Shown here one piece after another: positions 11,345 to 45,196 of a DNA stretch of 64,000 bases. The notes beneath the pieces are model-generated. The model had not been told where the DNA came from and made no database searches. It saw nothing but the letters and a program-made list of their open reading frames with translations. The DNA is from Candidatus Eiseniibacteriota bacterium. GTDB taxonomy: Bacteria > ARS69. The DNA is taken from the NCBI GenBank assembly GCA_052390515.1, contig JBQTGV010000011.1:9576-73575 (forward strand), written 5' to 3'. Position numbers and translations under genes: made by a program. Each line of letters begins with the position of its first letter. The first letter of the stretch is position 1.

Positions 11345-12202
11345 ATGACCGCCGGCAGCAGCCGAAAAACCGGGAGTACCCCAGAGGAAGCCCGAGGACG
11401 CCCCCCGAATCCTGGAGCGCCGAACGCCTTGTCCACATCCGACACCTCGAGTCGCCCGACTCCGGTGGTCGACGTCATCATCCCGGTCTACAACGAAGAG
11501 AAGATCCTCCCGCAGAGCATCAAGACGCTCGTGGGGTTCCTCCGGGAAAACGTCGACGTCCCGTGGCGCGTGCTCATCACCGACAACGCCTCGATCGACC
11601 GGACGGAGGAGGTCTCGCGCGCGCTGACGAAGGAGTATCCGGAGGTCGACTACGTGCGCCTGCCGCGCAAGGGTCGTGGCGGCGCGCTGAAGCAGGTGTG
11701 GCTGGCCAGCCCGGCGCAGTACGTCACCTACATGGACGTGGACCTCTCCACGCACCTGCGGGCGTTCAACCAGATGCTGGACCTGCTGCGCAACGGCAGC
11801 GACGTCGTCATCGGGTCCCGGCTTCGCCCGGATGCGAACACGACACGCAGCCTGAAGCGCGAGATCCTCTCCCGCGGGTACAACGTGCTCGTGCGCATCT
11901 TCTTCCGCACGCGGTTCACCGACGCGCAGTGCGGCTTCAAGGGAATGCGCCGCGAGGCCTGCCAGCTCCTCGTCCCCCACGTCGAGGACATCAAGTGGTT
12001 CTGGGACACGGAGCTCCTGGTCATCGCCGAGAAGTCGGGTCACCACATCGGCGAAGTGGCCGTCGAATGGATCGAGGATCTCGATACGCGCGTGAAGCTG
12101 GTCCAGACGATCTACGACGACATGGTCGCGCTGTTCCGACTGAGCGGTACGCTGTCCGACGTGTTGAAGCGCATCGATGAATCGCGCCCGCGTGGCGGCT
12201 GA
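11345..12202 (+). CDS. GT2 polyprenol-phosphate glycosyltransferase (dolichol-P-mannose/glucose synthase-like)
   Basis: 'VVDVIIPVYNEEKIL', 'VLITDNASIDRT', 'YVTYMDVDLS' and 'QCGFKGMRREA' are motifs of Ppm1/ArnC-like GT2 enzymes. Confidence 0.85.
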   Translation: MTAGSSRKTGSTPEEARGRPPNPGAPNALSTSDTSSRPTPVVDVIIPVYNEEKILPQSIKTLVGFLRENVDVPWRVLITDNASIDRTEEVSRALTKEYPEVDYVRLPRKGRGGALKQVWLASPAQYVTYMDVDLSTHLRAFNQMLDLLRNGSDVVIGSRLRPDANTTRSLKREILSRGYNVLVRIFFRTRFTDAQCGFKGMRREACQLLVPHVEDIKWFWDTELLVIAEKSGHHIGEVAVEWIEDLDTRVKLVQTIYDDMVALFRLSGTLSDVLKRIDESRPRGG

Positions 12203-14213
12203 GGAGCTTACCCGGAGCACATCGGCCGCGGCGCACGGCGTGCTCGCCGCCGCGGGACTCGCCTACCTGCCGCTGATCGCCGCGGCAGCCCTGACCTTCG
12301 CGTGCGCTGCCGCCGACCGCGTCTCCTTCGACGACGTCGTGCTGCTTTCGCCGGTAGGTGCGGCCGCGGGGCGCTTCGCCGCGGCTCTCGCGGCCATGGC
12401 GGCCGGATACTTCGCCGTCTTCTTCGCTCCCGGGCTTCTCATCCTGCGTGCGCTGCGCTGGCGGGCAGCGACGCCGGTCGGCGGTGTCGTGGCTGCGTTC
12501 GCGCTCTCGCAGCTCGGCATGGCGCTGGCGTGGATTGCGGCGCAGGCGGTGACGGAGGGCGTGGCCGGGCGGACGTGCGTGTACCTGACGGCGGCATCGC
12601 TCGACGCGGCCGCGTTGCTCGCGGCGGTCTTCGTGCGGCGGCGGGAGGGCGAAGGTCCGGCAGCCGGCGGCGAAGTTCCGGTGAGCGAAGGTCCGACGCT
12701 TCGCAGCCGCGAGGTGCTGGCGCCGGCGGCGGCGGCCGTGCTCGTGATCGCGGCGGCCTGGCTTTTCATGCCGGGCAAGATCACGACCGAAGCTCTCGAG
12801 GGCGACGCCACCGAAGTGCACGGCTTCGCCACGAGCCTCGTGGAGCGGGCGCTTCCGGAGTGGGATCTGGAGTCGGGCGCGTGGGGCTTCTACCCGACGT
12901 TCATGTACGTCGGGTACCCGGTGTTCTGGTCGATCGCGCTGGGTGGGGACTCGGAGGCGGCGGTGCGGCTCCCGGCGCTGCTCTTCCTCGGCATGCTGCT
13001 CGTCATGCTGGCGGAGCTCGCGGGGAGGAAGAGCGTAGGGACGGCGGACGGCGACCTGCGTGGGACCGCCGCGCGGGGGGGCGGCGCGCTCGGGGTGCTG
13101 CTGCCGCTCGCCTTCGTGGCGTACCTCTCCGTGCAGGTCGGCGCGTACTACTGCGGCTACCATCCCGTGCACGGCGATCTCGGAAGCTCGCCGCTCGAGG
13201 AGTGGATGGTGACCGCGCTCGCGGTGTGCGCCATCGTGCTGCTCCGCGACGGGGCGCCGGCGCTGGCCGTGATCCCGGCGTTCCTCTCGGTGCTGACGTT
13301 TCCGAGCGGACTGATGTTCGTGGCGCTCGTGGGGGTGGCCGGTGTCATGTCGGCGAGGGGTGCACAGCGCCGCGAGGTCATCAGGTGGGGCCTGCTGCTC
13401 GCCGCGGTGCTCGCCGTCTACGCCGTCTCTCTCGTCGTGCAGACGAAGGCGAACGGCACGTTCGACGCGATGATCGGCGAATGGCACCGCAAGTACTTCG
13501 CGCGGCGCGCGAGCTTCGGCGCGGAGGAGCCGGCGCGCATGGCGGCGGCGGTCGGCTGGTACGCGCTGCTTGCCGGAGGTGTCCCCGTGCTCGGGTACCT
13601 GCTCGCGCCGCGCTGGGACCGCGTGGCGAAGTGGCTCGCGCTGCTGGGCGTTGCCTGGACGCTCTTCTTTGTGCTCTCGCCCGGCAAGAACGTGCACTAC
13701 TTCCTGCCGTCGGCGCTCCTGCCGGCGGCGGTGCTGCTACGCTGCACGTCGTCGCGGTGGGTGCCGGCGGCGGTGGCGGCGTCGGCGCTCACGTGTATCG
13801 CGCTGTGTCGGCCGTCTTCGCCCGAGATCTACACCGCCGACCGCCAGTTCGGCCGGCGCACGCTCTTCCTCACGAACAGCTACCAGGAGGCGGTGCGCTG
13901 GTCGCACGTGATCTACAACCTGGTGGAGTACGGCCCGCACTGGGATCCGGGGAAGTCGTGGTCCATCGGGCACCACACCTGGGTGCTGTACGCCGACCGT
14001 GGCTTCGACGTGGACGGCGACTACCAGTTCTTCGTCAGCGACGGCCCGGCGCCGCGGCCCGAACTCACCGAGATCACGCGGCTGCCGCTCGAGGGCGGGA
14101 AGTCGGCGGTTCTATGGTCTCGGGAAGGCCGCGCGACGCTTCGCCCATGGAAGGACCGCACGTTCGCGACGAAGCGCGAGTTGAGCCGGTTCGACTTCGA
14201 CATGGGGAAGTGA
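12177..14213 (+). CDS. Polytopic membrane protein, putative GT-C fold glycosyltransferase coupled to the upstream GT2
   Basis: 678 aa with more than 12 hydrophobic helices. The start overlaps the stop of the GT2 gene by 26 nt. GT2 plus GT-C pairing is typical of lipid-linked sugar donor/acceptor systems. Confidence 0.6.
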   Translation: MNRARVAAEELTRSTSAAAHGVLAAAGLAYLPLIAAAALTFACAAADRVSFDDVVLLSPVGAAAGRFAAALAAMAAGYFAVFFAPGLLILRALRWRAATPVGGVVAAFALSQLGMALAWIAAQAVTEGVAGRTCVYLTAASLDAAALLAAVFVRRREGEGPAAGGEVPVSEGPTLRSREVLAPAAAAVLVIAAAWLFMPGKITTEALEGDATEVHGFATSLVERALPEWDLESGAWGFYPTFMYVGYPVFWSIALGGDSEAAVRLPALLFLGMLLVMLAELAGRKSVGTADGDLRGTAARGGGALGVLLPLAFVAYLSVQVGAYYCGYHPVHGDLGSSPLEEWMVTALAVCAIVLLRDGAPALAVIPAFLSVLTFPSGLMFVALVGVAGVMSARGAQRREVIRWGLLLAAVLAVYAVSLVVQTKANGTFDAMIGEWHRKYFARRASFGAEEPARMAAAVGWYALLAGGVPVLGYLLAPRWDRVAKWLALLGVAWTLFFVLSPGKNVHYFLPSALLPAAVLLRCTSSRWVPAAVAASALTCIALCRPSSPEIYTADRQFGRRTLFLTNSYQEAVRWSHVIYNLVEYGPHWDPGKSWSIGHHTWVLYADRGFDVDGDYQFFVSDGPAPRPELTEITRLPLEGGKSAVLWSREGRATLRPWKDRTFATKRELSRFDFDMGK

Positions 14214-14219
14214 AGCGGG

Positions 14220-14738
14220 TCACGCCGGCTCGGCGGGTGCTGCGGTGTGCAGCTCGCCCGGAGCGACGGCGCCGACGCCGGCACCCTCGCCGGTGACGAC
14301 GCGGCGGTGATAGTCGACCTGCCCGAGATGGTAGGCCAGGTGCGCTTCGAGGTGGATCAGGAAGTCCAGCGTGCGCAGGCGGGAGCCGGCCACCTCCAGC
14401 GGATACATCGCGTCGAGCTGCGCCGGCGTGATTCGACGCAACGCGCGCTCCACGTCGGACGAAGCGCGGCGGATCAGGTCGATCAGGTCGGAACGCGGGA
14501 CGTCCCGGTCGGCGAACTCGGCCGGCCGGTTGCGGACGTAGCCGCTGCCGCCGAGCACGCCGCCGATGAAGTGGCGGAGGTTGCCGACCAGATGCAGGGC
14601 GAGCGTTCCCGCGGAGTTCGTGATCCCGGGCGGCGTGTGCCAGATGTCGCGCTCGTCGGCGTAGGCCTGGAGCTCGCGCTCGAGCGCGGCGAGCTCCCGC
14701 TGGATCATCCGGCTCAGGATCTCGACGACCGTCATCAT
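14220..14738 (-). CDS. DinB-family (DinB_2/DUF664-like) metal-dependent protein
   Basis: 172 aa. Four-helix-bundle His pattern ('LHLVGNLRHFIGG', 'HLEAHLAYHLGQV') typical of DinB/YfiT. Confidence 0.8.
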   Translation of the reverse strand: MMTVVEILSRMIQRELAALERELQAYADERDIWHTPPGITNSAGTLALHLVGNLRHFIGGVLGGSGYVRNRPAEFADRDVPRSDLIDLIRRASSDVERALRRITPAQLDAMYPLEVAGSRLRTLDFLIHLEAHLAYHLGQVDYHRRVVTGEGAGVGAVAPGELHTAAPAEPA

Positions 14739-14803
14739 CCGCTCCGGATCCGCTCCGGCCGGCAGTATACCGCGGTGGTATAGTCCGCGGCGGAGGGGAA
14801 GTC

Positions 14804-15646
14804 GTGAGGGATCCTCGTGGGGTCTGGATGGCTGCCGGCCCCGTTGCCGTCGTCATCGCCGCTGCCACCGCCGCCCTGCTCTTTTCCACGCAGGGCGCCC
14901 GGGCCGAGGAGGGCTGGCTCGGCGTCGTCTTCGCCGATCAGGCGGTGGAGCTGTCGGCCGAGGCGGCCGGGACCGTCGCCGCGTATCACGCCCGTCTCGG
15001 GGACCTTGTCCGCACGGGTCAGCCGGTCGTCGCTCTCGAGTCGGAGGAGCTGCGCTCCGCGCGGGCCGGGTCCCAGGCCGCGCTCGACGCGGCGCGAGCG
15101 CGGGCGGAGAAGGCCGACGCCGAGCTCGGCGACGCCACGCGGATGGTCGAGCGGCGTCGCGAAGCGCCGGATCTCTTTTCCAGCGAGGAGATCGCGAAGC
15201 TCGAGTCCCGGCACCGCGTGGCCGAGGCGGAGCTGGCCGCGGCGCGGTCCGCGGTGGCCGAGCGGGAGGCCGCGCTTCAGGAGATCGAGAGACAGCTCGG
15301 CGGGATGACGCTGCGCGCGCCGTTCGACGGATCCGTGGCGCTCGCCCTGCGCGAGGTCGGCGACCGCGTCGCCGCGGGCGAGGCGCTCGTCCGGCTCATC
15401 AGCCGCGGCGATCCGTGGATCCGCTTCGCCGTGCCGTCGAGCGAGGCGGCGGGCGTGGCGGCGGGTGGCGCCGTGCGCGTGACGCTTCCGGGCGGCGCGC
15501 AGAGCTGGAGCGCTCAGGTGCGGCGCGTGGCGCCCGAGATCGATCCCGCGACCGACATGATCTTCGCGGAGGCGGTGCTGACGCTCGCGGCGGGGGAGGC
15601 GGGGCCGAGGGCGGGGGAGGTGGTGCGGGTGAGGGCCGGAGGCTGA
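14804..15646 (+). CDS. HlyD-family periplasmic adaptor (membrane-fusion protein), short form
   Basis: N-terminal TM 'MAAGPVAVVIAAATAALLF'. A lipoyl-like 'GDLVRTGQPVVALES' hairpin. A long coiled coil. A C-terminal beta-barrel 'LRAPFDGSVALALREVGDRVAAGEALVRL'. Confidence 0.65.
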   Translation: MRDPRGVWMAAGPVAVVIAAATAALLFSTQGARAEEGWLGVVFADQAVELSAEAAGTVAAYHARLGDLVRTGQPVVALESEELRSARAGSQAALDAARARAEKADAELGDATRMVERRREAPDLFSSEEIAKLESRHRVAEAELAAARSAVAEREAALQEIERQLGGMTLRAPFDGSVALALREVGDRVAAGEALVRLISRGDPWIRFAVPSSEAAGVAAGGAVRVTLPGGAQSWSAQVRRVAPEIDPATDMIFAEAVLTLAAGEAGPRAGEVVRVRAGG

Positions 15647-15664
15647 CGGCGTCGGGTCACGCGC

Positions 15665-17872
15665 TCATATCGCCCGCGCGCCGACCAGCTCGGCGTAGTG
15701 CCCCCCCCGCGCCACGAGCTCGTCATGAGTCCCCCGCTCCACGAGCTGCCCGCGGTCCATCACCAGGATCACGTCGGAGTCCAGGATCGAGCTGAGCCGG
15801 TGCGCGATGACGATGCGCGTGCAGTCCAGCGCCCGCAGGTTCTGCTGGATCTTGCGCTCGGCCAGCGCGTCCAGGTGGCTGGTGGCCTCGTCCAGCACCA
15901 GGATCGGCGGTCGCCTGAGCAGCGCCCTCGCCAGCGCGATCCGCTGTCGCTGTCCGCCCGCCAAGCTCCCGCCGCCGGACGCCACCGGCGTCTCGTAGCG
16001 CAGCGGCATCTCCAGGATGTCGTCGTGGATGTGCGCCAGCTCCGCCGCCCGCTGGATGTCGGCCAGCGGCGTCGCGGCGTCCACCATGGCGATGTTCGTG
16101 CGGATGGTCCCTGCGAAGAGGAACGGATACTGCGGCACGAAGCCGACCTGCCGCCGGATCGAGCCGAACTCGTAGTGCGAGAGATCCCGGTCGTCGTACA
16201 GGATCTTGCCCTTGACCGGCTCGTACAGCCCGACCAGCAGCCGCGCCAGCGTCGACTTGCCCGACCCGCTGCGCCCGACGATGGCCACCTGCGCTCCGCG
16301 CGGGATCGTGAGGCTCACGCCGTCCACCGCCCAGGGCGCGGCCTCGCTGTAGCGGAACGAAACGTCGCGCAGCTCGATTCCCCCGGCGAGCGGCGGCGCC
16401 GCCGTCGTCGTCGTGCCCTGCTGCTCCGGCGCGTTCTCCAGCACGTCGTCGACGCGCTCCACGTAGCTCCCGAGGAGCTGGAACTGCAGCGCGGTCTGCA
16501 CCAGCGACGACAACGGCCCCAGGAACCCCGCGGCCAGCGCGTTCATGGCCAGCATGGTGCCCAGCGTGAGCTCACCCGCGAGCGTCAGGTGCGCGCCGTA
16601 GCCGAGCAGCACGAGCGGCGAGGCGGTCGCCAGCGCACTCAATGACGAATCCACCAGCGCCGCGAGCTTCGCCCTGCGGATGGAGATGTTCATCACGTCC
16701 ACGAGCAGGTTGGACGACTGCTCCAGCGCCCTTCGCTCCGCGCCCGTCGTCTTCAAGGTCTCGATGCCCTCGATCATCTGCACCTGGAAGTTGGACGACG
16801 CCGCCTGCGCCTGCAGGTTTTCGGTCATGAGCTCCCGGTAGCGGCGGCGCGTCCCCAGGTAGATGGCCACGCGCAGCGCTCCCAGCGCCAGCACGACGAG
16901 CCCGAGCCCGGCGTGGGTGAGCAGCAGCACGATCAGGTAGCCCGTCACGAGCAGTCCGTCGAGCACCGCCGACATCGCCCCGGAAGTGAGCATCTCGCGG
17001 ATGGCGGCGTTACTGTTGAGGCGCATCACCAGGTCGCCGGTCTGTCGGAGCTGGAAGTACGAGAACGGTAGGCGCAGGAGGTGCTCGAGGAAGTCCAGCG
17101 TCATCTGCACGTCGAGCGCCGTTCGCAAGTGCAGCAGGAGGTGCGCGCGCAGGAACGAGGCGAAGAAGCTGAACAACGTGATCCCGGCGATGCCCACGGC
17201 CAGCACCTGCAAGAGGTGCAGGTCGGCGCGCGGGACGACGCGGTCGACGACGGCACCGGTGAGCACCGGCAGCGCCAGTGCCAGCACCTGGGCGAAGAGC
17301 GAGACGACGACGATGCGGCTCAGGAGCCCGGAGTGCGCCAGTACCTTCGCCACGTAGCGGCGCACGCGAGACTCCCCGCGCGGCACCGCCTCGAAGCCGT
17401 GCGACGGCTCGAGCTGCAGCGCCACGCCGGTGAACGCCTTGCTGAAGTCGTCGTGCGGGATGAGGCGGCGGCCGGCCGCGGGATCCACGATCTCGACGCC
17501 CTTGCGGCCGATGCGGTCGAGCACCACGAAATGCTTCATCTGCCAGTGCAGGATGGAACCGGTCTTCAAGTAGTCGAGGTCCGAGACGTCCAGGCGCACC
17601 GCCTGCCCGCGCAGACCGAACTGGGCCGCGCACTCCACGATGGCGAGCGCGTTCACGCCGTCGCGGCCGGCGAACAGCTTGTCGCGCACTTCGTCCAGCG
17701 TCGTCTCCCGACCGTGGTAGCGCAGGACCATGGCCAGGCATGCCGCGCCGCAGTCGGTGACGTGGAGCTGCTGCACGTAGGGAACGTGCCGGCGCTTCGC
17801 GCGCGCTTCACCGATGCGCTTGACCGCGGGGAATCGATCCGCGAGCGAGCCCTTCGCCGGGCCGTCGGTCAC
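15665..17872 (-). CDS. Peptidase-C39-domain ABC transporter (bacteriocin/double-glycine peptide processing exporter)
   Basis: 735 aa. The N-terminal C39 domain has catalytic Cys and His ('VTDCGAACLAMVLRYHG', 'HFVVLD'). Six TM helices follow, then an ABC ATPase (Walker A 'GRSGSGKST', signature 'LAGGQRQR', Walker B 'ILVLDEATS'). Confidence 0.9.
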   Translation of the reverse strand: MTDGPAKGSLADRFPAVKRIGEARAKRRHVPYVQQLHVTDCGAACLAMVLRYHGRETTLDEVRDKLFAGRDGVNALAIVECAAQFGLRGQAVRLDVSDLDYLKTGSILHWQMKHFVVLDRIGRKGVEIVDPAAGRRLIPHDDFSKAFTGVALQLEPSHGFEAVPRGESRVRRYVAKVLAHSGLLSRIVVVSLFAQVLALALPVLTGAVVDRVVPRADLHLLQVLAVGIAGITLFSFFASFLRAHLLLHLRTALDVQMTLDFLEHLLRLPFSYFQLRQTGDLVMRLNSNAAIREMLTSGAMSAVLDGLLVTGYLIVLLLTHAGLGLVVLALGALRVAIYLGTRRRYRELMTENLQAQAASSNFQVQMIEGIETLKTTGAERRALEQSSNLLVDVMNISIRRAKLAALVDSSLSALATASPLVLLGYGAHLTLAGELTLGTMLAMNALAAGFLGPLSSLVQTALQFQLLGSYVERVDDVLENAPEQQGTTTTAAPPLAGGIELRDVSFRYSEAAPWAVDGVSLTIPRGAQVAIVGRSGSGKSTLARLLVGLYEPVKGKILYDDRDLSHYEFGSIRRQVGFVPQYPFLFAGTIRTNIAMVDAATPLADIQRAAELAHIHDDILEMPLRYETPVASGGGSLAGGQRQRIALARALLRRPPILVLDEATSHLDALAERKIQQNLRALDCTRIVIAHRLSSILDSDVILVMDRGQLVERGTHDELVARGGHYAELVGARAI

Positions 17873-18810
17873 GAGCCGCGCTCCAGCAGCTCACGCAGTC
17901 CTGGCACGAGCGCGACGAGCAGCTTCTCGCGGCGCACCGCGACTTCCGCCTCCGCGGCCATGCCGGGAAAGAAGCGATGCTCCCGCCCTCCGGCGCGGAA
18001 GGTGGGGTCGACCAGCGGCGCGTGCGCGAAGACCACCGGTCCGGAGATCGACACGGCGTCCCCGAGCTCGGTGCCGAGGTAGCGCTGCACCGCGCCCGGA
18101 CCGACCACCTCCTCGCCGACGGTGGCGATCTCCGCGTCGACGTACGCGTGCGAGTAGCCCGGTACTTCCAGCCGCATGACGAGACCGGGGCGAAGCAGCG
18201 GGCGGTAGCTTCCCGGCAGGAACGCGACGACCGCGAGCCCGCCCTCTTCCGTGGAGAGCGTGAGCACGCGGTCGCCGGCGGAGAGGAGCTGGCCCGGACG
18301 GATGCGAAGGTCCTGGACGCGGCCGTCGTGCGGTGCCGCGACAATGCGCTCCTCGAGCCGTGCGAGCGCTTCCACCATCGCGGGGCGGGCGGCGGCGGCG
18401 GCGGCTCGCGCGGCCTGATCCCCCGGATCCCGTAGCACGCGCACGAGCTGCATCTCGAAGTCGGACCGCGCCGCGTCGGCCGCGCTGCGCTCCGCGCCGG
18501 CGTAGAACCGCACCAGCTCCTGTCCGGCGGTGACGGCGTCCCCCGGCGCGACGAGCACCTCGTCCACCGTCCCGGCGACGCGCGCGGTCAGGTCGATCTG
18601 TCCCTCGGTGCGCACCACCGCCGGACCGGACGCGTACTCGTCCACGCTGCCGAAGAAGCCGTAACCGAGCGCCGCCACGAACGCGACGACCAGGACGTGG
18701 TACGTCCACCGCGTCCAGCGGTCTGAGTTCCGCAGAACGGCGCCTTCGCCTTCCCGGCCGCGCGCCGCTTCGCGCAGCGCTTCCTCGCGGAAGAGGTCGC
18801 TCGGAGTCAC
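17869..18810 (-). CDS. HlyD/CvaA-family secretion adaptor for the C39-ABC exporter
   Basis: 313 aa. N-terminal 'LFREEAL' followed by TM 'YHVLVVAFVAALGYGFF', a coiled coil, and C-terminal 'GYSHAYVDAEIATVGEEVV'. A 4-nt ATGA overlap with the ABC gene. Confidence 0.8.
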   Translation of the reverse strand: MTPSDLFREEALREAARGREGEGAVLRNSDRWTRWTYHVLVVAFVAALGYGFFGSVDEYASGPAVVRTEGQIDLTARVAGTVDEVLVAPGDAVTAGQELVRFYAGAERSAADAARSDFEMQLVRVLRDPGDQAARAAAAAARPAMVEALARLEERIVAAPHDGRVQDLRIRPGQLLSAGDRVLTLSTEEGGLAVVAFLPGSYRPLLRPGLVMRLEVPGYSHAYVDAEIATVGEEVVGPGAVQRYLGTELGDAVSISGPVVFAHAPLVDPTFRAGGREHRFFPGMAAEAEVAVRREKLLVALVPGLRELLERGS

Positions 18811-18881
18811 AGCTCCGGGATTCTAAGGACTCCCGGTCGGCCTTGCGAGCCCTGCTTCGCGGCGGCGGTCTCGATCGGCCG

Positions 18882-19355
18882 TCAGCCCTGCGAGCCCTGC
18901 TTCGCCATCTCCGCCATACGCCGGTCCAGCTCCTCCGGGCTGACGTCCTCGACGTGCGTGGCCAGCGTCCAGCGGTGGCCGAAGGGGTCGGTGAACGTGC
19001 CGGAGCGGTCGCCGTAGAACTGATCCTGCACCGGGCGCTCCTCCTTCGCTCCGGCGCGGACGGCGCGGGCGAAGGCCTCGTCCACCTTCTCCACGTAGAT
19101 CATCAAGTGCACGGGCGTCCCGCCGAGGGTCTTCGCGCTGCGAACGTTCATCGCGGGATGCTCGTCGGCCAGCATGATGCGCGCGTCCCGGATGAGCAGC
19201 TCGGCGTGGCCGACCTTCCCTCCCGGCGAAGGGATCCGCATGAGCTCCGTCGCTCCGAGGGCCTTTCCGTAGAACTCGATCGCGGCGTTGGCGTCGTGAA
19301 CGATGAGATACGGCGTGACGGTCTGGTACTCGTCGGGAATCGGCTTGACTGTCAT
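18882..19355 (-). CDS. VOC-family protein (glyoxalase / bleomycin-resistance / PhnB-like)
   Basis: 157 aa. 'VTPYLIVHDANAAIEFYGKALGATE...GKVGHAELLIRDARIMLADEHP' is typical of PhnB/VOC proteins. Confidence 0.85.
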   Translation of the reverse strand: MTVKPIPDEYQTVTPYLIVHDANAAIEFYGKALGATELMRIPSPGGKVGHAELLIRDARIMLADEHPAMNVRSAKTLGGTPVHLMIYVEKVDEAFARAVRAGAKEERPVQDQFYGDRSGTFTDPFGHRWTLATHVEDVSPEELDRRMAEMAKQGSQG

Positions 19356-19367
19356 GGATGACCTCCT

Positions 19368-19730
19368 TCAGCGCCCTGCGGCGGGCGCGTGTCCGTACTT
19401 CTGCGTGGCGAAACCGACGATCAGCCCGAGCACGGTGCCCGGCAGCATGATCTCCAGGTAGTAGTGGTTGCCGCTCGCGTCGGGCATCGCGGCGACGAGC
19501 CAGGATAGCAGGAGCCCGACCACGAGTCCCGCGCCGAGCCCCACGGCGAGCGACTTCACGCGGCGGGAGACCGCGCCGACGACGAGACCGGTGATCAGCC
19601 CCTTCGCCGTCGAGCCGATGACGATTCCGGTGAGCATCGGCTTGACTTCCGGTGCCGAGAGCAGCGCGGAGAATCCGTCGATGATCCCGAGAATGCCGCC
19701 GAGCACGAGGCCGAGGACGGGCTTGCTCAT
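19368..19730 (-). CDS. Small glycine-zipper membrane protein, paralog B (120 aa)
   Basis: The internal ATG overlaps the stop of paralog A (ATGA). Paralogous over its full length to the upstream gene: 'LGLVLGGILGIIDGFSALLSAPEV...GIVIGSTAKGLITGLVVG' versus 'LGILLGTALGALDGSTAFVSAPEL...GIVLGSTAKGLVVGLVTG'. Confidence 0.6.
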   Translation of the reverse strand: MSKPVLGLVLGGILGIIDGFSALLSAPEVKPMLTGIVIGSTAKGLITGLVVGAVSRRVKSLAVGLGAGLVVGLLLSWLVAAMPDASGNHYYLEIMLPGTVLGLIVGFATQKYGHAPAAGR

Positions 19731-20098
19731 CGGGACACCGCGGGGCGGCCCCAGCGAACGGCCGCGTAACCGGTCAAGAGGCCCGTCAGGCATCCCGGCA
19801 AAATGATCTTCCAGTAGTACGACGCGTTCTCGTAGTACGTCGCGTTCATGTGCGCGATCGGAGCCGCCAACGCGAGCGCCACGACGAGTCCGACGAGCGC
19901 GCCGGTCGGGAACGAGCCCGTCTTGCGCACGAGGAATCCGGTGACGAGTCCCACGACGAGCCCCTTCGCCGTCGAGCCCAGCACGATGCCGAGCAGCTCG
20001 GCGCGCAGCTCCGGCGCAGAGACGAACGCGGTGCTGCCGTCGAGCGCCCCGAGCGCCGTACCGAGCAGGATTCCGAGGAGCGGTCGATTCATCCCCAC
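19727..20098 (-). CDS. Small glycine-zipper membrane protein, paralog A (123 aa)
   Basis: A strong GGAGGTGGGGA Shine-Dalgarno sequence lies 7 nt upstream. Three predicted TM helices rich in GxxxG/AxxxG. Tandem paralog of the next gene. Confidence 0.6.
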   Translation of the reverse strand: MGMNRPLLGILLGTALGALDGSTAFVSAPELRAELLGIVLGSTAKGLVVGLVTGFLVRKTGSFPTGALVGLVVALALAAPIAHMNATYYENASYYWKIILPGCLTGLLTGYAAVRWGRPAVSR

Positions 20099-20137
20099 CT
20101 CCTTCCGAGCTTCCTTTCCACGACGCGCCGGATTCGT

Positions 20138-21052
20138 TTACGTCCCGGCGAACAAAAAGACGAGAGCGCGCACGACGACGTAGGCGAGCACGAGCAGGAT
20201 GGCCGTCCGGTACCTTCGCGCCCAGCGCCCGAGGCGGTCCAGCACTCCCTCGCGGTAGGCGCTGACCGGGTCCCCGTCGATGAAGCGGGTGACGTCCCTG
20301 GCCAGCTCGTCGACGCTCTCGTAGCGCCGTGCCGGATCGTCGGCTCCGGCACGCTCGCGGATGGCCCGCGCCGCCCTGGGGGCCGGGCCTGCCCCGTCCA
20401 GCAAGTGCCCGAGAATGGCGCCCAGGGCGAAGATGTCGCTCTTGGCGTCGGCCAGGTCGGAGCGCCCGCGGGCCTGCTCCGGCGCCATGTACCCGGGCGT
20501 GCCCAGCACGGTGCCGGGCTCCTCGCCGTCGCGCGCGCCCAGCACCCTCGCGACGCCCCAGTCCATGATCAGCACTTCCCCGAACCGCCCGACCATCACG
20601 TTCGCGGGCTTCAAGTCCCGGTGCACGACGCCGTGCGCGTGCGCGAACGCGACCGGCTCGCAGATGCGCAGGAAGAGCCGGAGCCGCTCCGGAAGGCTGT
20701 CGATCCCGCGCACGTGCTCGTCGAGCCGGCTCCCGCGAACGAGCTTCATCGAGTACCACGCGCGCCCGTCCCCGAGGCGCCCGAAGTCATGCACCGGAAC
20801 GATGCCGGGATGTTCGAGCCGCGCCAGGATTCTCGCCTCGTGCAGCAGTGGCGGATGTCCGGCGTTGCCGCGAGGATCGTTCAGCACCTTGATCGCCACG
20901 TCCCGGTCGAGCTGCCGGTCGGTGGCGCGGTAGACGGCGCCCATGCCCCCACGCCCGATCGGCTCGCGGATCTCGTAACGCGGATCCTCGAGCTCCGGCC
21001 AATCGAGGGCGGCGCGGAGGTGCCGGACCGTGTCGTCGGAGAGCCAGGTCAC
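20138..21052 (-). CDS. Tail-anchored Ser/Thr protein kinase (Hanks-type), no sensor domain
   Basis: The GTG start overlaps the sigma-factor stop (GTGA). It carries 'IGRGGMGAVYRA', 'VAIKVL', 'HRDLKPANV', 'DWG', 'GTPGYMAPE' and a C-terminal TM 'TAILLVLAYVVVRALVFLFAGT'. The long upstream extension of the ORF (to 21985) lies in the sigma gene's alternate frame and is rejected. Confidence 0.85.
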   Translation of the reverse strand: MTWLSDDTVRHLRAALDWPELEDPRYEIREPIGRGGMGAVYRATDRQLDRDVAIKVLNDPRGNAGHPPLLHEARILARLEHPGIVPVHDFGRLGDGRAWYSMKLVRGSRLDEHVRGIDSLPERLRLFLRICEPVAFAHAHGVVHRDLKPANVMVGRFGEVLIMDWGVARVLGARDGEEPGTVLGTPGYMAPEQARGRSDLADAKSDIFALGAILGHLLDGAGPAPRAARAIRERAGADDPARRYESVDELARDVTRFIDGDPVSAYREGVLDRLGRWARRYRTAILLVLAYVVVRALVFLFAGT

Positions 21053-21804
21053 GGGTTCTCGCTCCCGAGGAGGTCGCGCGCTTCCTCCCGGAACTCCGCG
21101 TCGCTCGCGCACAGCTCCCGCAGGCGGTCCAGGACGATGCCGCGGAAGCGCTTGCGCACGGCGTGCAGCCGGTTCGTCACTGTGGTCACGTCCAGCCCGT
21201 GCTCGCGTGCGAGGTCGCCGTACGATACGCGCTCCGAGGCACCCGGCCCCTCCAGATCGTAGCGGCGGAACATGGCGAAGGCCGACTGCCTGCCTTCGGC
21301 CTCGCAGCGCGCGCGGAGCTCGTCCACCGCCAGCGCGAGGAGGCTGCGGACCCACTCGCGGTGGAAGAGCGTCTCCGGATCGGCGAAGTCCGGGACGGCG
21401 TGCGCGGCCAGCTCGCCTTCCGCCGTCTCGAAGTCGAGCGGCACGTGGCGAACGTCGCCGCCGCGCTTCAAGCGCCGCAGGGCCTTGCGCTCGTTGGAGA
21501 CGTAGCCGTCGAGACAGGTGCGCAGCCAGGTGCGGAACTTCGCCTTGCCCGGGTCGTACCGGGCGAGGATCTCGCGATCGATGGCCGAGGCGAAGAAGCC
21601 CTGCGTCAGGTCCTTCGCCTCCTCGTTGTCGGCCTTCCAGCAGAGGCGAAGGTACTTGTAGACCGGCTTCCAGTAGCTCGCCACCAGCACGTCGAGCGCG
21701 CGCCGGCGCTCGTCCGAATCGGGGCTGCCGGTGGCGCGGACGACGGAAAGCCGGGTCTCCGGAAAGCGGTCCCGGGCGCCGCCCATGTCGGTGTCGCGCT
21801 CCAT
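21049..21804 (-). CDS. ECF-type RNA polymerase sigma-70 factor, translationally coupled to the Ser/Thr kinase
   Basis: Sigma2 region 'DLTQGFFASAI...FRTWLRTCL' and sigma4 HTH 'SYGDLAREHGLDVTTVTNRLHAVRKRF'. No anti-sigma gene is adjacent. The STK gene follows immediately. Confidence 0.85.
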   Translation of the reverse strand: MERDTDMGGARDRFPETRLSVVRATGSPDSDERRRALDVLVASYWKPVYKYLRLCWKADNEEAKDLTQGFFASAIDREILARYDPGKAKFRTWLRTCLDGYVSNERKALRRLKRGGDVRHVPLDFETAEGELAAHAVPDFADPETLFHREWVRSLLALAVDELRARCEAEGRQSAFAMFRRYDLEGPGASERVSYGDLAREHGLDVTTVTNRLHAVRKRFRGIVLDRLRELCASDAEFREEARDLLGSENP

Positions 21805-21893
21805 GAGTCCTCAGGGTAGCACGCTCCGGGGGCGCGTCACGGCATCCGGTGATATCCTGCCGCGGGCGATTGGCCGGAGGGACTCCCGTGAGC

Positions 21894-22760
21894 ATGATCC
21901 AGACCGCGCCTCGCCTGGCCGCGCTCTTCACCGATCCGCGCAGCCGCCCGATCGGCGTCTTCGATTCCGGCGTCGGCGGGCTCACCGTGCTGTCCGCGCT
22001 CCGTGACGCGCTTCCCGGAGAGTCGCTGATCTACCTCGGCGACACGGCGCGGCTGCCCTACGGCACGAAGAGCTTCTCCACGGTCACGCGCTACGCGATC
22101 CAGGCCGCGCGCGTGCTCGTGGATCAGGGGATCAAGCTGCTGGTGGTGGCGTGCAACACCGCGTCGGCGCTGGCGCTCGACGATCTGGCCATCGAGTTCT
22201 ACGACGTTCCGGTGATCGGCGTGCTGCGTCCCGGGGCGGACGCCGCCTGTCTCGGCTCGCCGACCGGGCGAATCGCGGTCATCGCCACGGAGAGCACGAC
22301 GTCCCACGGCGCCTACGAGCGCGAGATCCGCCGCATCCGCCCCGAGGCGCGCGTCGTGTCCCGCGCGTGCTCGCTCTTCGTGGCACTGGTGGAGGAGGGC
22401 TGGACCAAGGGGCCGATCGTGAAGGCCGTCGCGCACGAGTACCTGGATCCGATCTTTGCCGGGGTGGGCGGCGGGGTGGGCGCGCCCGACTGTCTCGTGC
22501 TGGGCTGCACGCACTTCCCGGTGCTCGCCGAGCTGCTGCAGGAAGTGACCGGCCCGGACGTCATCATCGTGGACTCCGCGCGGACCACCGCGGAGGCGGT
22601 GCGCGAGGAGCTGCGCAAGCGCAACCTCGGGCGCACCGACGAGGCCCCGGCCACGATCCGGCTGATGGCGACCGATTCGCCGGCGCGCTTCGCGCGCGTC
22701 GCCGCCAACCTCATCCCGCGGGAGATCCTCCCGGACACGATCGAGCTCGTCGATCTCTGA
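21894..22760 (+). CDS. murI: Glutamate racemase
   Basis: 'PIGVFDSGVGGLTV', 'LVVACNTAS', 'LGCTHFP' catalytic motifs. A GGAGGG Shine-Dalgarno sequence lies upstream of the ATG at 21894. The ORF start at 21849 is possible but less supported. Confidence 0.9.
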   Translation: MIQTAPRLAALFTDPRSRPIGVFDSGVGGLTVLSALRDALPGESLIYLGDTARLPYGTKSFSTVTRYAIQAARVLVDQGIKLLVVACNTASALALDDLAIEFYDVPVIGVLRPGADAACLGSPTGRIAVIATESTTSHGAYEREIRRIRPEARVVSRACSLFVALVEEGWTKGPIVKAVAHEYLDPIFAGVGGGVGAPDCLVLGCTHFPVLAELLQEVTGPDVIIVDSARTTAEAVREELRKRNLGRTDEAPATIRLMATDSPARFARVAANLIPREILPDTIELVDL

Positions 22761-23335
22761 TGAACCACCTCGCGCACGCGCTGATCGCGGTCCGCTCGCG
22801 CGGGTCGATTCCCGGCCATCTGCTCGGCGACTTCGTGAAGGGAGCACCGGAAGGCCGCTACCGGGGCGAGCTGCTCGAGGGGGTCCGCATCCACCGCCGG
22901 GTCGACGCGTTCACCGACGCCCATCCGCGCATCGCCCTGAGCCTGCGGCGCTTCGACCCGCCGTACCGCCGCTTCGCGGGGATCCTCGTGGACCTCTTCT
23001 TCGACCACTTGCTGGCACGCTCGTGGGAGGAGTGGTCGGGCGAGCCGCTGCGGGCCTTCGCCGACCGCGTGTACGCGGAGCTCGGCGCCGCCCGCGGGGA
23101 GCTGCCCGCGGAGATGCAGCACTTCGCCGACTACATGACGGCGAGCGACCTGCTCGTGTCCTACCGGGAGCCCGCGGGACTGGCGCGGGCGCTCGTCGGA
23201 ATGTCCCGGCGAATGCACCGCCCGAACCCGTTGGCCACCGCCGCCGGGGCGATGGAGCGCAGCCGCGGTGGCCTGGAGACCGACTTTCGCGTCTTCTTCC
23301 CGGAGCTGCTCCGGGAGTTCGCGCCTGATGCGTGA
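22760..23335 (+). CDS. acpH: Acyl carrier protein phosphodiesterase (AcpH-family)
   Basis: 'MNHLAHALIAVRS...HLLGDFVKG...RIHRRVDAFTDAHP' is the N-terminal HD-like motif characteristic of ACP phosphodiesterase. The ATG overlaps the murI stop (TGATG). The long upstream ORF extension is rejected. Confidence 0.8.
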   Translation: MNHLAHALIAVRSRGSIPGHLLGDFVKGAPEGRYRGELLEGVRIHRRVDAFTDAHPRIALSLRRFDPPYRRFAGILVDLFFDHLLARSWEEWSGEPLRAFADRVYAELGAARGELPAEMQHFADYMTASDLLVSYREPAGLARALVGMSRRMHRPNPLATAAGAMERSRGGLETDFRVFFPELLREFAPDA

Positions 23336-24609: not shown

Positions 24610-25080
24610 GTGAAGAACTTCGAGAGAGCGCTGCGCTACGAGAGCTGGGCGAATCGCCGGGTGCTGGCCTGCCTGCGCGAGCACCCCGGCGAAGCGCGCG
24701 GCTGGCGCATCTTCGCGCACGTCCTGGCTGCGCAGGAGCTGTGGCTGGCGCGGCTTCGGGGAGATGACTCCGACGGGATGGAGGTCTGGCCGGAGTGGGG
24801 GGCGGACCGGTGCGAGGAGGCGCTGGACCGCGCGGAGGCGGGCCTCGCGGAGTTCGAGCGTGGCATCGGTCCGGAGCTCCTCGAGCAGCGGGTGCTCTAC
24901 CGGAACACCCGGGGTACGCCGTACACGACGCGCGTGCACGACATACTCCGGCACCTGAACCGGCACGGCGTCTATCACCGCGGGCAGGTCGCGCTGGCGG
25001 TCCGACTCGGCGGAGGGTCGCCCGTGAACACGGACTACATCGCGTGGGTCCGGGAGCTCGAAGGGCAGCCGCTGCGATGA
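24610..25080 (+). CDS. DinB-family protein
   Basis: 'YESWANRRVLACL', 'FAHVLAAQELWLARL', 'HLNRHGVYHRGQVALAVR' are the DinB superfamily His-triad pattern. Confidence 0.8.
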   Translation: MKNFERALRYESWANRRVLACLREHPGEARGWRIFAHVLAAQELWLARLRGDDSDGMEVWPEWGADRCEEALDRAEAGLAEFERGIGPELLEQRVLYRNTRGTPYTTRVHDILRHLNRHGVYHRGQVALAVRLGGGSPVNTDYIAWVRELEGQPLR

Positions 25081-45013: not shown

Positions 45014-45196
45014 TCAGACCTCCTCCCGCCCGTCCGCTTCGAGAGGCAGACGCGCCACGTGGTCCATACGCTCGTGCCGGCGGAGACCTCGGATCTCGCG
45101 GACCAGCACCACGGTGAACGCGACGAGGAAGATCGCGAGCGCGACGAGCGGCCACGCCAGCAGATCGCTCTTCGCGAACCAGCTCTCGAACATCAT
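45014..45196 (-). CDS. ccoQ: cbb3 oxidase small subunit CcoQ/FixQ-like (60 aa)
   Basis: 'MMFESWFAKSDLLAWPLVALAIFLVAFTVVLV' is a single-TM peptide in CcoQ position. The ATGA overlap with the ccoNO stop. Confidence 0.6.
   Translation of the reverse strand: MMFESWFAKSDLLAWPLVALAIFLVAFTVVLVREIRGLRRHERMDHVARLPLEADGREEV

What the first reader, a model, noticed from the sequence alone, without database searches (positions are those of the whole stretch)
15665..21804. Seven-gene minus-strand operon linking an ECF sigma factor / Ser-Thr kinase pair to a C39-peptidase ABC exporter
Seven tightly spaced genes lie on the minus strand. Four pairs share ATGA/GTGA overlaps and all gaps are 71 nt or shorter.
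- An ECF sigma factor with no anti-sigma partner.
- A tail-anchored Hanks kinase with no sensor domain.
- Two tandem paralogous glycine-zipper membrane proteins.
- A bleomycin-resistance-like VOC protein.
- An HlyD adaptor.
- A C39 peptidase ABC exporter with an intact catalytic Cys and His.

ECF sigma factors activated by a cognate kinase rather than an anti-sigma factor have been reported; I recall Vibrio EcfP/PknT. That control module welded onto a double-glycine-type peptide exporter plus a resistance-like protein looks like a self-contained antimicrobial-peptide response or export system. I do not recognise this arrangement as a described system.
Basis: partly seen in the sequence, partly recalled or inferred. 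Interest (0 to 1): 0.7.

Follow-up and report, generated by a model that had tools for sequence, protein, structure and literature searches.

The report
Sigma-kinase stress cassette beside peptide exporter
The seven genes are real, but they are two separate modules lying side by side: a widely conserved, undescribed sigma factor/kinase/small membrane protein signalling cassette with its own internal promoter, and an unrelated lanthipeptide-type peptide exporter found next to it only in this lineage.

Summary
All seven minus-strand genes exist with the stated domains, in a Candidatus Eiseniibacteriota MAG. There are three start/stop overlaps, not four. Comparison across about 170 loci splits the region into two modules.

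Module 1 is sigma, tail-anchored Hanks kinase and a small four-helix membrane protein, followed by a VOC-fold protein in about half of loci. It recurs in Acidobacteriota, Planctomycetota, Gemmatimonadota, Myxococcota and other phyla. A conserved bipartite promoter-like motif (TTAAAG-N17-TAATAG) sits at the kinase stop codon, in front of the membrane-protein gene. It occurs once in the 64-kb window, at 20110-20142.

The sigma keeps the acidic region-2.2 residues, with Lys where EcfP-type (ECF43) sigmas carry the phospho-threonine. It is therefore not an ECF43-type switch.

Module 2 is HlyD, a C39-peptidase ABC exporter and a second HlyD. It follows module 1 only in near-identical relatives: 0 of 58 genome loci and none of 80 metagenome loci have it. 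Its closest homologues sit in lanthipeptide or double-glycine peptide clusters. No substrate gene lies in the window.

The "welded system" reading is not supported by conservation, although lineage-specific read-through cannot be excluded. The conserved cassette is the interesting part.

The parts
21813..21840 (-). Possible housekeeping-type promoter for sigma and kinase (GTGACG-N16-TACCCT), 8 nt upstream of the ribosome-binding site and ATG. Low confidence.
   Evidence: Read from the sequence. It resembles the CTTGTC-N17-TACACT element conserved upstream of the sigma gene in nine Terriglobia loci. The cassette's own motif has no hit here.
21049..21804 (-). Divergent ECF-type sigma factor, 251 aa. 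The acidic region-2.2 motif EAKD is retained.
   Evidence: Pfam Sigma70_r2 scores 27 bits. TIGR02937 scores 40.1, below its 42.9 cutoff. The AlphaFold model has pLDDT 81, and the top Foldseek hits are ECF sigmas (sigmaE, SigE, AlgU, SigH, SigW). More than 5,594 homologues were found.
20138..21052 (-). Tail-anchored Hanks Ser/Thr kinase, 304 aa. It overlaps the sigma stop codon (GTGA) and has no extracytoplasmic domain.
   Evidence: Pkinase E = 1.4e-35. The motifs VAIK, HRDLKPAN, DWG and APE can be read in the sequence. A C-terminal helix with at most 5 residues after it is present in 115 of 116 homologues. That helix carries an invariant Tyr (113/113) and Arg (112/113).
20110..20142 (-). Conserved bipartite promoter-like motif overlapping the kinase stop codon. 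Window sequence: CGTAAACGAATCCGGCGCGTCGTGGAAAGGAAG. Family consensus: TTAAAGGAWTC-N8-aCGTTTAATAGAA.
   Evidence: The weight matrix was built from 86 other loci. It gives a single window hit of 22.5 bits; the next best is 3.7 and the shuffle maximum is 16.6. Across 168 loci, 100 of 108 hits of at least 16 bits lie within 130 nt upstream of the TM gene.
19727..20092 (-). TM1: the divergent paralogue of the four-helix glycine-rich membrane protein, 121 aa.
   Evidence: 44% identical to TM2. The start at ATG 20092 fits the homologues and the ribosome-binding site. No Pfam, NCBIfam or PADLOC hit.
19368..19730 (-). TM2: the orthodox copy of the four-helix membrane protein family, 120 aa, with invariant Asp18 and Lys43.
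18882..19355 (-). VOC-fold (glyoxalase superfamily) protein, 157 aa.
   Evidence: PF00903 E = 1.1e-18. A VOC protein follows the TM gene in 29 of 58 genome loci. Most of those belong to a different, 120-127 aa Ble-like subfamily.
18816..18851 (-). 36-nt block in the VOC-HlyD gap that is identical to the 88%-identity relative L001. It contains TCGCAA-N17-TAGAAT and a small hairpin over the ribosome-binding site. Possible own promoter or translational element for HlyD and the exporter.
   Evidence: Alignment. The surrounding locus is about 87% identical. No terminator was predicted. The gap's RNA fold is not unusual, z = -0.5.
17869..18810 (-). HlyD-family adaptor (HlyD1), 313 aa. It overlaps the exporter start (GTGA).
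   Evidence: HlyD_3 E = 1e-13. A HlyD gene precedes the exporter in three of the four closest non-syntenic relatives examined (L169-L171). In L172 a 159-aa gene with no Pfam hit is at that position.
15665..17872 (-). Peptidase-containing ABC exporter, 735 aa, with an intact C39 Cys/His/Asp triad.
   Evidence: Pfam C39 + ABC_membrane + ABC_tran. The best NCBIfam model, TIGR03796, scores 599 against a cutoff of 853. The C39 domain aligns to LahT (6mpz) and PCAT1 (4ry2) with catalytic residues conserved.
14804..15646 (+). Second HlyD-like adaptor (HlyD2), 280 aa, convergent with the exporter. It belongs to the exporter module.
   Evidence: RND_mfp E = 1.5e-29. A second HlyD gene accompanies this exporter subfamily in L169, L170 and L171 and in L001.

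Best explanation
Two independent modules lie head to tail.

Module 1 (21804-18882) is a conserved signalling cassette. A divergent ECF-type sigma factor and a sensor-less, tail-anchored Hanks kinase are translationally coupled. They are probably expressed from a housekeeping-type promoter.

Inferred mechanism: the kinase activates the sigma by phosphorylation at a site other than the ECF43 region-2.2 threonine. The sigma then fires the conserved promoter that overlaps the kinase stop codon. That promoter drives the small four-helix membrane protein (duplicated here) and a cytoplasmic VOC-fold protein.

The membrane protein is both the universal output and the likeliest intramembrane partner or feedback regulator of the kinase. 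This rests on an invariant Arg in the kinase tail and an invariant Asp18 in its helix 1. The payload type (VOC; elsewhere DinB, or AHSA1 fused to the membrane protein) points to a membrane-associated toxin or electrophile stress response.

Module 2 (18810-14804) is HlyD1, a C39-peptidase ABC exporter and HlyD2. It is a lanthipeptide/double-glycine peptide exporter that landed downstream in this Eiseniibacteriota lineage. No substrate or biosynthetic genes lie in the window.

Shown here: gene content, conservation statistics, the motif and its position, and sequence features.
Inferred: phosphorylation, recognition of the motif by this sigma, kinase-membrane protein contact, and the nature of the stress.
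For: Conservation of module 1:
- In 80 GTDB genome loci from at least six phyla, the kinase is adjacent in 65 of 71 and the TM gene follows in 58 of 66, plus 3 at a greater distance. A VOC gene follows the TM gene in 29 of 58.
- Reciprocally, 80 metagenome loci were found using the TM protein. In 46 of the 53 with enough upstream sequence, the kinase lies immediately upstream.

Promoter-like motif:
- It occurs once in the window, at 22.5 bits, exactly in front of TM1.
- 100 of 108 strong hits across 168 loci lie directly upstream of the TM gene. In 59 of these the kinase stop codon is the TAA of the first box.
- In the most compact loci (e.g. L112) the downstream box lies about 5 nt upstream of the ribosome-binding site; the TAAAG box starts a median 64 nt (43-115) upstream of the TM start codon.
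- A different, sigmaA-like element lies upstream of the sigma gene.

Sigma and kinase features:
- The sigma has an ECF fold with invariant E61, A63 and D65, and K64 in every aligned sequence.
- The kinase tail anchor carries an invariant Tyr and Arg. The TM protein has invariant D18 and K43.

Payload:
- Two unrelated VOC subfamilies occupy the same slot.
- The TM domain occurs fused to AHSA1 or THAP4-like domains.
- In L049 a second copy of the motif lies upstream of a DinB-like gene.

Independence of module 2:
- No exporter or HlyD in 0 of 58 genome loci or in any of 80 metagenome loci.
- Relatives of the exporter at 59-69% identity sit with GG-leader peptides, LanB/LanC and a second HlyD, and never with this cassette.
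- A 36-nt invariant block with a TAGAAT box lies just upstream of HlyD.
Against: - No transcript or phosphorylation data exist for this family.
- The motif could be bound by a different regulator, or it could be an unusually conserved housekeeping promoter.
- I did not map any of the conserved Ser/Thr residues (Thr17, Ser20, Thr92 invariant; Thr67 nearly so) to a plausible phospho-site, so kinase-to-sigma signalling rests on analogy and strict co-occurrence.
- No terminator separates VOC from HlyD. The exporter may therefore be co-transcribed in this lineage.
- The Arg/Asp pairing is inferred from invariance alone. There is no covariation and no complex model.
- The fold search gives no functional homologue for the TM protein.
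Confidence: 0.6

Rival explanations
1. One reading: all seven genes form one self-contained system. The kinase/sigma pair senses antimicrobial peptides and switches on the membrane proteins, the resistance-like VOC protein and the exporter together.
For: - All genes are on the same strand, with gaps of 71 nt or less and three overlaps.
- There is no predicted terminator or unusual RNA structure in the VOC-HlyD gap.
- The only copy of the cassette's promoter-like motif lies upstream of TM1, so read-through into HlyD and the exporter is possible.
- The arrangement is kept in two close relatives.
Against: - The close relatives are syntenic over the whole region, so their agreement carries no weight.
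- The exporter is absent from every more distant copy of the cassette.
- Relatives of the exporter belong to lanthipeptide or GG-peptide clusters.
- No substrate gene lies in the 64 kb.
- An invariant 36-nt block with a -10-like box lies just before HlyD.
Confidence: 0.15
2. The small four-helix protein is only a stress effector of the regulon, for example a membrane-stabilising or channel-like protein. It plays no part in sensing or in regulating the kinase.
For: - It lies downstream of the promoter-like motif rather than with the regulators.
- It resembles glycine-zipper hairpin proteins structurally.
- It is sometimes duplicated, or fused to soluble ligand-binding domains.
Against: - The kinase has no sensor domain, yet its membrane tail has an invariant Tyr and Arg. 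This argues for a specific intramembrane partner.
- The four-helix protein is the only other membrane protein that always co-occurs, and it carries an invariant buried Asp.
Confidence: 0.3
3. The conserved intergenic motif is not this sigma's promoter. It is instead a housekeeping promoter or the operator of an unlinked regulator.
For: - TTAAAG-N17-TAATAG loosely resembles TTGACA-N17-TATAAT.
- No experiment links the motif to this sigma.
Against: - About 30 nt of sequence are kept across phyla in the surveyed loci, at one position only. The window itself is about 70% GC. Housekeeping promoters at orthologous loci do not stay this constant.
- The only factor that always co-occurs with it is the sigma encoded about 1.7 kb upstream.
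- It includes the CGT block typical of ECF -10 regions (own knowledge).
Confidence: 0.15
4. TM1 and TM2 are immunity proteins for a bacteriocin exported by the neighbouring exporter.
For: Small multi-pass membrane proteins next to bacteriocin exporters are often immunity proteins (own knowledge).
Against: - The family is linked to the kinase in 46 of 53 loci and never to an exporter or a peptide gene outside this lineage.
- The window contains no bacteriocin gene.
Confidence: 0.03
5. The kinase is a stand-alone anti-phage defence kinase of the PD-T4-6 type.
For: It matches the PADLOC PD-T4-6 models with E = 3e-59.
Against: - The match covers only the generic Hanks catalytic domain.
- The kinase overlaps a sigma gene and is tied to the TM gene across phyla.
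- No other protein of the locus hits PADLOC specifically.
Confidence: 0.02

Closest known systems
EcfP/PknT (Vibrio parahaemolyticus) and EcfK/PknS (Xanthomonas citri), ECF group 43
   Same: - An ECF-type sigma is encoded next to a membrane-anchored Hanks kinase.
- No anti-sigma factor is present.
- The sigma is proposed to be switched on by direct phosphorylation (PMC8999054, PMC13147305).
   Different: - ECF43 sigmas replace the acidic DxxD of region 2.2 with uncharged residues and a phospho-acceptor Thr (QTTA/STTA). This family keeps (E/D)AKD, with Lys at the Thr position.
[quoted passage not shown] Here there is none.
- Here a four-helix membrane protein and an internal promoter are obligate parts of the cassette.
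Other kinase-linked ECF groups (ECF59, 61, 62, 217, 283; original ECF60, which has a divergent sigma-2 domain)
   Same: - They are kinase-associated and have no anti-sigma factor.
- A DAED-like acidic motif is retained.
- They are partly planctomycetal (PMC8999054, PMC7826278).
[quoted passage not shown]
   Different: - Membership could not be tested, because the ECF Hub models were not available.
- In the papers I could read, I found no description of a tail-anchored kinase, a linked four-helix protein, a VOC protein or this promoter motif for those groups.
Peptidase-containing ABC transporters: PCAT1, LahT, ComA, and LanT-type lanthipeptide exporters
   Same: - An N-terminal C39 domain with the Cys/His/Asp triad, followed by six-helix ABC and nucleotide-binding domains.
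- HlyD-family adaptors accompany it.
- Close relatives sit beside GG-leader peptides and LanB/LanC.
   Different: - No substrate or modification genes lie within the 64-kb window.
- It is paired with two HlyD-like adaptors.
- It scores below the NHLP-exporter cutoff (599 against 853).
Intramembrane-sensing kinases that depend on accessory membrane proteins (LiaFSR, BceS-BceAB). This is a functional analogy from own knowledge.
   Same: - A kinase with no extracellular sensor is paired with a small membrane protein.
- That protein is itself part of the regulon it controls.
   Different: - Those are histidine kinases with response regulators. Here it is a Hanks kinase with a sigma factor.
- There is no sequence relationship.
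- The interaction is only inferred.
VOC superfamily (glyoxalase I, fosfomycin-resistance enzymes, bleomycin-binding proteins)
   Same: Pfam Glyoxalase fold. In many relatives the equivalent gene also hits Ble-like_N.
   Different: - The window protein belongs to a different, 157-aa subfamily with only a weak YjdN-like hit.
- It has no detectable pairwise similarity to the common 127-aa type.
- Metal ligands and substrate are unknown.

Membership tests
ECF (group 4) sigma factors | A two-domain sigma-2 plus sigma-4 fold without a region-3 domain | tested here: met
   - The AlphaFold model has pLDDT 81. The top Foldseek hits are all ECF sigmas, with probability 1.00 over about 190-212 aligned columns.
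- TIGR02937 aligns over model positions 2-162 of 165 but scores 40.1, below its 42.9 cutoff.
- Pfam Sigma70_r2 scores 27.1 against a cutoff of 24.
ECF43 (EcfP/EcfK type) | A Hanks kinase gene adjacent to the sigma gene, and no anti-sigma factor | tested here: met
   - The kinase overlaps the sigma stop codon and is adjacent in 65 of 71 loci.
- No neighbouring protein hits an anti-sigma domain.
ECF43 (EcfP/EcfK type) | Acidic DxxD of region 2.2 replaced by uncharged residues, with a conserved phospho-acceptor Thr (QTTA/STTA) | tested here: not met
   - The motif is (E/D)AKD. E61, A63 and D65 are invariant, and K64 occupies the Thr position in all 24 aligned sequences.
- A profile alignment places it on EAQD of AlgU.
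ECF43 or other kinase-linked ECF groups (ECF59-62, 217, 283) | Assignment by the ECF Hub group models | not testable with these tools
   The models and the supplementary group descriptions were not available.
Hanks-type Ser/Thr kinases | Catalytic domain with the Lys, HRD and DFG-like motifs | tested here: met
   Pkinase E = 1.4e-35. VAIK, HRDLKPAN, DWG and APE can be read in the translation.
Peptidase-containing ABC transporters (bacteriocin/lanthipeptide exporters) | A C39 domain with the catalytic Cys, His and Asp, fused to an ABC exporter | tested here: met
   Pfam hits. The alignment to LahT and PCAT1 shows the Cys, the HFVV His and the DP Asp conserved.
Peptidase-containing ABC transporters (bacteriocin/lanthipeptide exporters) | A cognate double-glycine leader peptide encoded nearby | tested here: not met
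   - No GG-leader ORF was found by pattern search.
- tblastn with the relatives' peptides found nothing.
- The large window genes tested include no LanB or LanC.
- Such genes are present in the relatives L169-L172.
NHLP-family bacteriocin exporter (TIGR03796) | A score above the curated cutoff | tested here: not met
   599 bits against a cutoff of 853.3.
VOC / glyoxalase superfamily | A match to the Pfam Glyoxalase domain | tested here: met
   PF00903 scores 68 bits against a cutoff of 20.6.
Bleomycin-resistance proteins | The Ble-like N-terminal domain, or drug binding | tested here: not met
   The window protein has no Ble-like_N hit. The hit is present in the different VOC subfamily found in other loci. 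Drug binding cannot be tested here.
Glycine-zipper membrane protein families (Pfam Gly-zipper models) | A match to a curated glycine-zipper model | tested here: not met
   - There is no Pfam or NCBIfam hit.
- GxxxG-type repeats are visible in the alignment.
PD-T4-6 anti-phage kinase | A stand-alone kinase acting in phage defence | tested here: inconclusive
   The PADLOC hit (E = 3e-59) covers the generic kinase domain only. The conserved context is a sigma/TM cassette.

The most novel reading that the evidence does not exclude
The cassette is a new three-part signalling device. A sensor-less Hanks kinase is controlled inside the membrane by the small four-helix protein, through pairing of the kinase-tail Arg with Asp18. 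The kinase activates a non-ECF43 sigma through a phospho-site outside region 2.2. The sigma in turn drives the four-helix protein from a dedicated promoter built into the kinase stop codon, which closes a feedback loop. In this Eiseniibacteriota lineage the loop has additionally captured an orphan lanthipeptide-type exporter by read-through.
Probability: 0.25. Interest if true: 0.7.

Novelty: new variant of a known kind. Interest (0 to 1): 0.5.

Why it matters
According to the reviews read here (PMC8999054), kinase-controlled sigma factors have been studied experimentally only in ECF43 (EcfP and EcfK, with one further ECF43 sigma from Hyphomonas neptunium tested). Those reviews state that the other kinase-linked groups, which keep the acidic RNA-polymerase contact, must work differently and remain uncharacterised.

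This family offers a compact and very widespread test case. It has thousands of sigma homologues in soil and sediment phyla, and three features that make it tractable:
- a kinase with no sensor domain;
- one obligate membrane partner;
- a sharply defined candidate target promoter.

The input, the switch and the output are therefore all directly testable. The analysis also shows that a tidy same-strand gene row can be two unrelated modules. That matters when function is inferred from a single genome.

Tried and rejected
- **Promoter upstream of the sigma gene.** K-mer and dyad enrichment on 104 upstream regions gave no family-wide motif. Only a sigmaA-like CTTGTC-N17-TACACT appeared, in nine Terriglobia loci.
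- **Consensus promoter/terminator scan of 14000-23000.** It found no promoter and no relevant terminator.
- **Sequence search of the sigma against PDB.** It found nothing. The family profile gave only marginal hits to AlgU and SigC, E about 0.08. The fold search was needed to confirm the family.
- **ECF group assignment.** The supplementary files of the classification paper are not held. The Iyer et al. 2020 paper is not in the library.
- **Search for a substrate peptide or lanthipeptide enzymes in the window.** The result was negative.
- **PADLOC.** Only generic kinase and ABC matches were found.
- **Long TM-family members as possible TM-VOC fusions.** None is a VOC fusion. Two are fused to AHSA1 or THAP4-like domains.
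- **Literature search combining ECF, Hanks, glyoxalase and transmembrane.** No paper was found.

Full report
**1. Observation**

The window has about 70% G+C. Its sigma and exporter proteins match NCBI entries MGQ0720247 and MGQ0720241 exactly. Both come from a Candidatus Eiseniibacteriota MAG contig of 129,768 bp.

Seven minus-strand genes are present:
- sigma, 21049-21804
- kinase, 20138-21052
- TM1, 19727-20092
- TM2, 19368-19730
- VOC protein, 18882-19355
- HlyD, 17869-18810
- C39-ABC exporter, 15665-17872

Three pairs overlap by 4 nt: sigma/kinase, TM1/TM2 and HlyD/exporter. The other gaps are 45, 12 and 71 nt.

Domain assignments are confirmed.
- The sigma scores weakly: Sigma70_r2 at 27 bits, and TIGR02937 at 40.1 against a cutoff of 42.9. 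Its AlphaFold model (pLDDT 81) nevertheless matches only ECF sigma structures across both domains.
- The kinase has the catalytic motifs and ends in one hydrophobic helix followed by three residues.
- The C39 Cys/His/Asp align with those of LahT and PCAT1.

**2. The region is two modules**

I compared neighbourhoods in three ways.

(a) Look-ups of sigma homologues.
- Relatives at 88% identity (L001), and another reached through TM2 at 89%, have all seven genes. However, they are syntenic over the entire region, including murI and the DinB genes, so they say nothing about functional linkage.
- Homologues at 57-62% identity from Pyrinomonadaceae, a 6.1-Mb acidobacterial genome and a Planctomycetota MAG have only sigma, kinase, one small TM protein and a small VOC protein. 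Unrelated genes follow.

(b) 80 GTDB genome loci found with a sigma alignment. They span Acidobacteriota (many classes), Planctomycetota, Gemmatimonadota, Calditrichia, Ignavibacteria, Cytophagia and Myxococcus dinghuensis.
- Kinase adjacent to sigma: 65 of 71.
- TM gene next: 58 of 66, plus 3 at a greater distance.
- VOC gene directly after the TM gene: 29 of 58.
- HlyD or C39-ABC downstream: 0 of 58.

(c) 80 metagenome loci found with a TM-protein alignment, as a reciprocal test.
- Of the 53 with enough upstream sequence, 46 have the kinase immediately upstream.
- None has an exporter.
- A locus whose TM protein is 67% identical also lacks the exporter.

**3. The exporter module**

I examined the four closest non-syntenic exporter homologues (59-69% identity). 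None is near this sigma/kinase cassette.
- L169 and L171 have HlyD1 and the exporter next to a divergent operon. That operon runs HlyD2, a protein of about 490 aa, a sigma-like protein and a zf-HC2 anti-sigma, followed by 46-59-aa peptides. The peptides carry textbook leaders such as ...ELRQVLGG.
- L170 and the Eiseniibacteriota locus L172 carry LanB, LanC and precursor peptides.

In the window, HlyD1, the exporter and a convergent HlyD2 (14804-15646) are present. No GG-leader ORF, LanB or LanC was found in the 64 kb. The exporter is thus a lanthipeptide/double-glycine-type exporter whose substrate is encoded elsewhere or has been lost.

The 71-nt gap in front of HlyD has no terminator and no unusual fold. 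Its 3' 36 nt are identical between the window and L001, against a background of 87% identity. This block contains TCGCAA-N17-TAGAAT, which hints at an own promoter. Two sequences are thin evidence, and read-through remains possible.

**4. An internal promoter-like motif**

Upstream of the sigma gene there is no family-wide motif. Terriglobia loci share a sigmaA-like CTTGTC-N17-TACACT, and the window has GTGACG-N16-TACCCT.

The kinase-TM intergenic region, by contrast, carries a strongly conserved bipartite element. Its consensus is TTAAAGGAWTC-N8-aCGTTTAATAGAA, which can be read as TTAAAG-N17-TAATAG.
- A weight matrix built from 86 other loci gives exactly one hit in the window: 20110-20142 on the minus strand, at 22.5 bits. 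The next best is 3.7, and 20 shuffles reach at most 16.6.
- Across about 1.9 Mb of fetched loci, 100 of 108 hits of at least 16 bits lie within 130 nt upstream of a TM gene. Seven of the other eight also lie between the kinase and the TM or VOC gene.
- In 59 cases the kinase stop codon is the TAA of the first box.
- The remaining hit, in L049, lies about 100 nt upstream of a DinB-like gene next to the sigma.
- The position fits a promoter: in the most compact loci the -10-like box lies about 5 nt from the ribosome-binding site, and the TAAAG box starts a median 64 nt upstream of the TM start codon.

The only factor that always accompanies this motif is the sigma encoded just upstream. The most economical reading is therefore that this is the sigma's target promoter, and that the TM and VOC genes are its core regulon. 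This is an inference.

**5. Comparison with known kinase-controlled sigmas**

ECF43 sigmas (EcfP, EcfK) are inactive until phosphorylated. Region 2.2 has lost the acidic DxxD motif and carries a Thr (STTA/QTTA) that the kinase phosphorylates (PMC8999054, PMC13147305).

In this family E61, A63 and D65 are invariant, and K64, present in every aligned sequence, sits at the Thr position. A profile alignment places the motif on EAQD of AlgU. The ECF43 switch is therefore not present.

Reviews note that the other kinase-linked groups (ECF59, 61, 62, 217, 283) keep a DAED-like motif and must work differently. They also note that sigmas with divergent sigma-2/sigma-4 domains, such as the original ECF60, escape the classification pipeline (PMC8999054, PMC7826278). 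This family fits that description. I could not run the group models.

**6. The kinase and its likely partner**

In 115 of 116 homologues the kinase ends in a hydrophobic helix with at most five residues beyond it. That helix carries an invariant Tyr (113/113) and Arg (112/113), four residues apart.

The four-helix protein:
- has an AlphaFold pLDDT of 85.7;
- has no Pfam or NCBIfam hit;
- has 1,819 homologues, all annotated as hypothetical, and 699 cluster representatives at 50% identity;
- has an invariant Asp18 in helix 1 and Lys43 in helix 2.

A buried Arg in a sensor-less kinase tail, plus a buried Asp in the one membrane protein that always co-occurs, suggests an intramembrane complex. This is inferred, not shown.

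**7. The payload**

The slot after the TM gene holds a VOC protein in about half of loci, and two VOC subfamilies without detectable pairwise similarity occupy it. The window's 157-aa type recurs in L001 and L064. A Ble-like type of 120-127 aa is the common one.

Some family members are fused at the C-terminus to AHSA1/SRPBCC or THAP4-like beta-barrel domains. One locus has a 180-aa protein of unknown family in the slot.

These are small ligand-binding or detoxifying folds. This points loosely to a toxin or electrophile response at the inner face of the membrane.

**8. Verdict**

The seven genes are real. The regulatory half is a member of the known class of sigma factors paired with a Hanks kinase, but it is a distinct variant:
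- the acidic region 2.2 is retained;
- the kinase is tail-anchored and has no sensor;
- a four-helix partner is obligate;
- a promoter-like motif overlaps the kinase stop codon.

Its fusion to the exporter is a lineage-specific juxtaposition, not a conserved system. I found no description of the sigma/kinase/four-helix/VOC cassette or its motif in the accessible literature. The key 2020 paper and the classification supplements were not readable, so prior description cannot be excluded.

Noticed in passing
window 14804-15665; L001 16133-16860: Relative to the 88%-identity relative L001, the window lacks a 728-bp segment between HlyD2 and the exporter. In L001 that segment encodes a 192-aa Cys-containing hypothetical protein with an N-terminal hydrophobic segment.
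   Followed up: partly
L169 2323-6904; L171 1987-6963: Next to the closest exporter relatives lies a recurring, undescribed-looking operon. It runs HlyD2, a protein of about 490 aa with no Pfam hit, a 337-353-aa sigma-like protein and a zf-HC2 anti-sigma. One to three GG-leader peptides with Pro/Gly/Asp-rich cores follow.
   Followed up: partly
L004, L007, L008 and other Pyrinomonadaceae loci, about 0.1-7 kb upstream of the sigma: In Pyrinomonadaceae the cassette sits directly downstream of an FHA protein, an FHA-kinase, an RDD protein and an FHA-GAF-PP2C phosphatase. A MacAB-like ABC system lies beyond these. The PP2C could be the phosphatase that resets the sigma.
   Followed up: no
L049 9223-9870: A second strong copy of the cassette's promoter-like motif (34 bits) lies about 100 nt upstream of a 172-aa DinB-like gene, immediately before the sigma gene. 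This gene is a possible extra regulon member.
   Followed up: partly
L026, L038, L043, L074, L079 and other Terriglobia loci, between the motif and the TM start codon: A GC-rich hairpin (for example GCGGGC-N-GCCCGC) follows the promoter-like motif in the 5' leader of the TM gene in Terriglobia. The window lacks it.
   Followed up: no
L069, L071, L088: In these loci a second, more divergent copy of the four-helix protein follows the VOC gene, giving sigma-kinase-TM-VOC-TM. Duplication of the TM gene has therefore happened more than once, in different positions.
   Followed up: partly
window 12177-14213 (+): This 678-aa multi-pass membrane protein has high third-position GC and no Pfam hit at E of 1e-4 or better.
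   Followed up: no
window 14220-14738, 24610-25080; L001 4587-7095: Several DinB/MST-like and AHSA1-like small stress proteins are scattered around the locus. The block between the asparaginase-like gene and the peptidase S9 gene differs between the window and L001.
   Followed up: no
window 45193-50358 (-): A fused CcoN-CcoO (cbb3-type oxidase subunits I and FixO) gene of 885 aa lies next to a heavy-metal P-type ATPase. It is unrelated to the finding.
   Followed up: no
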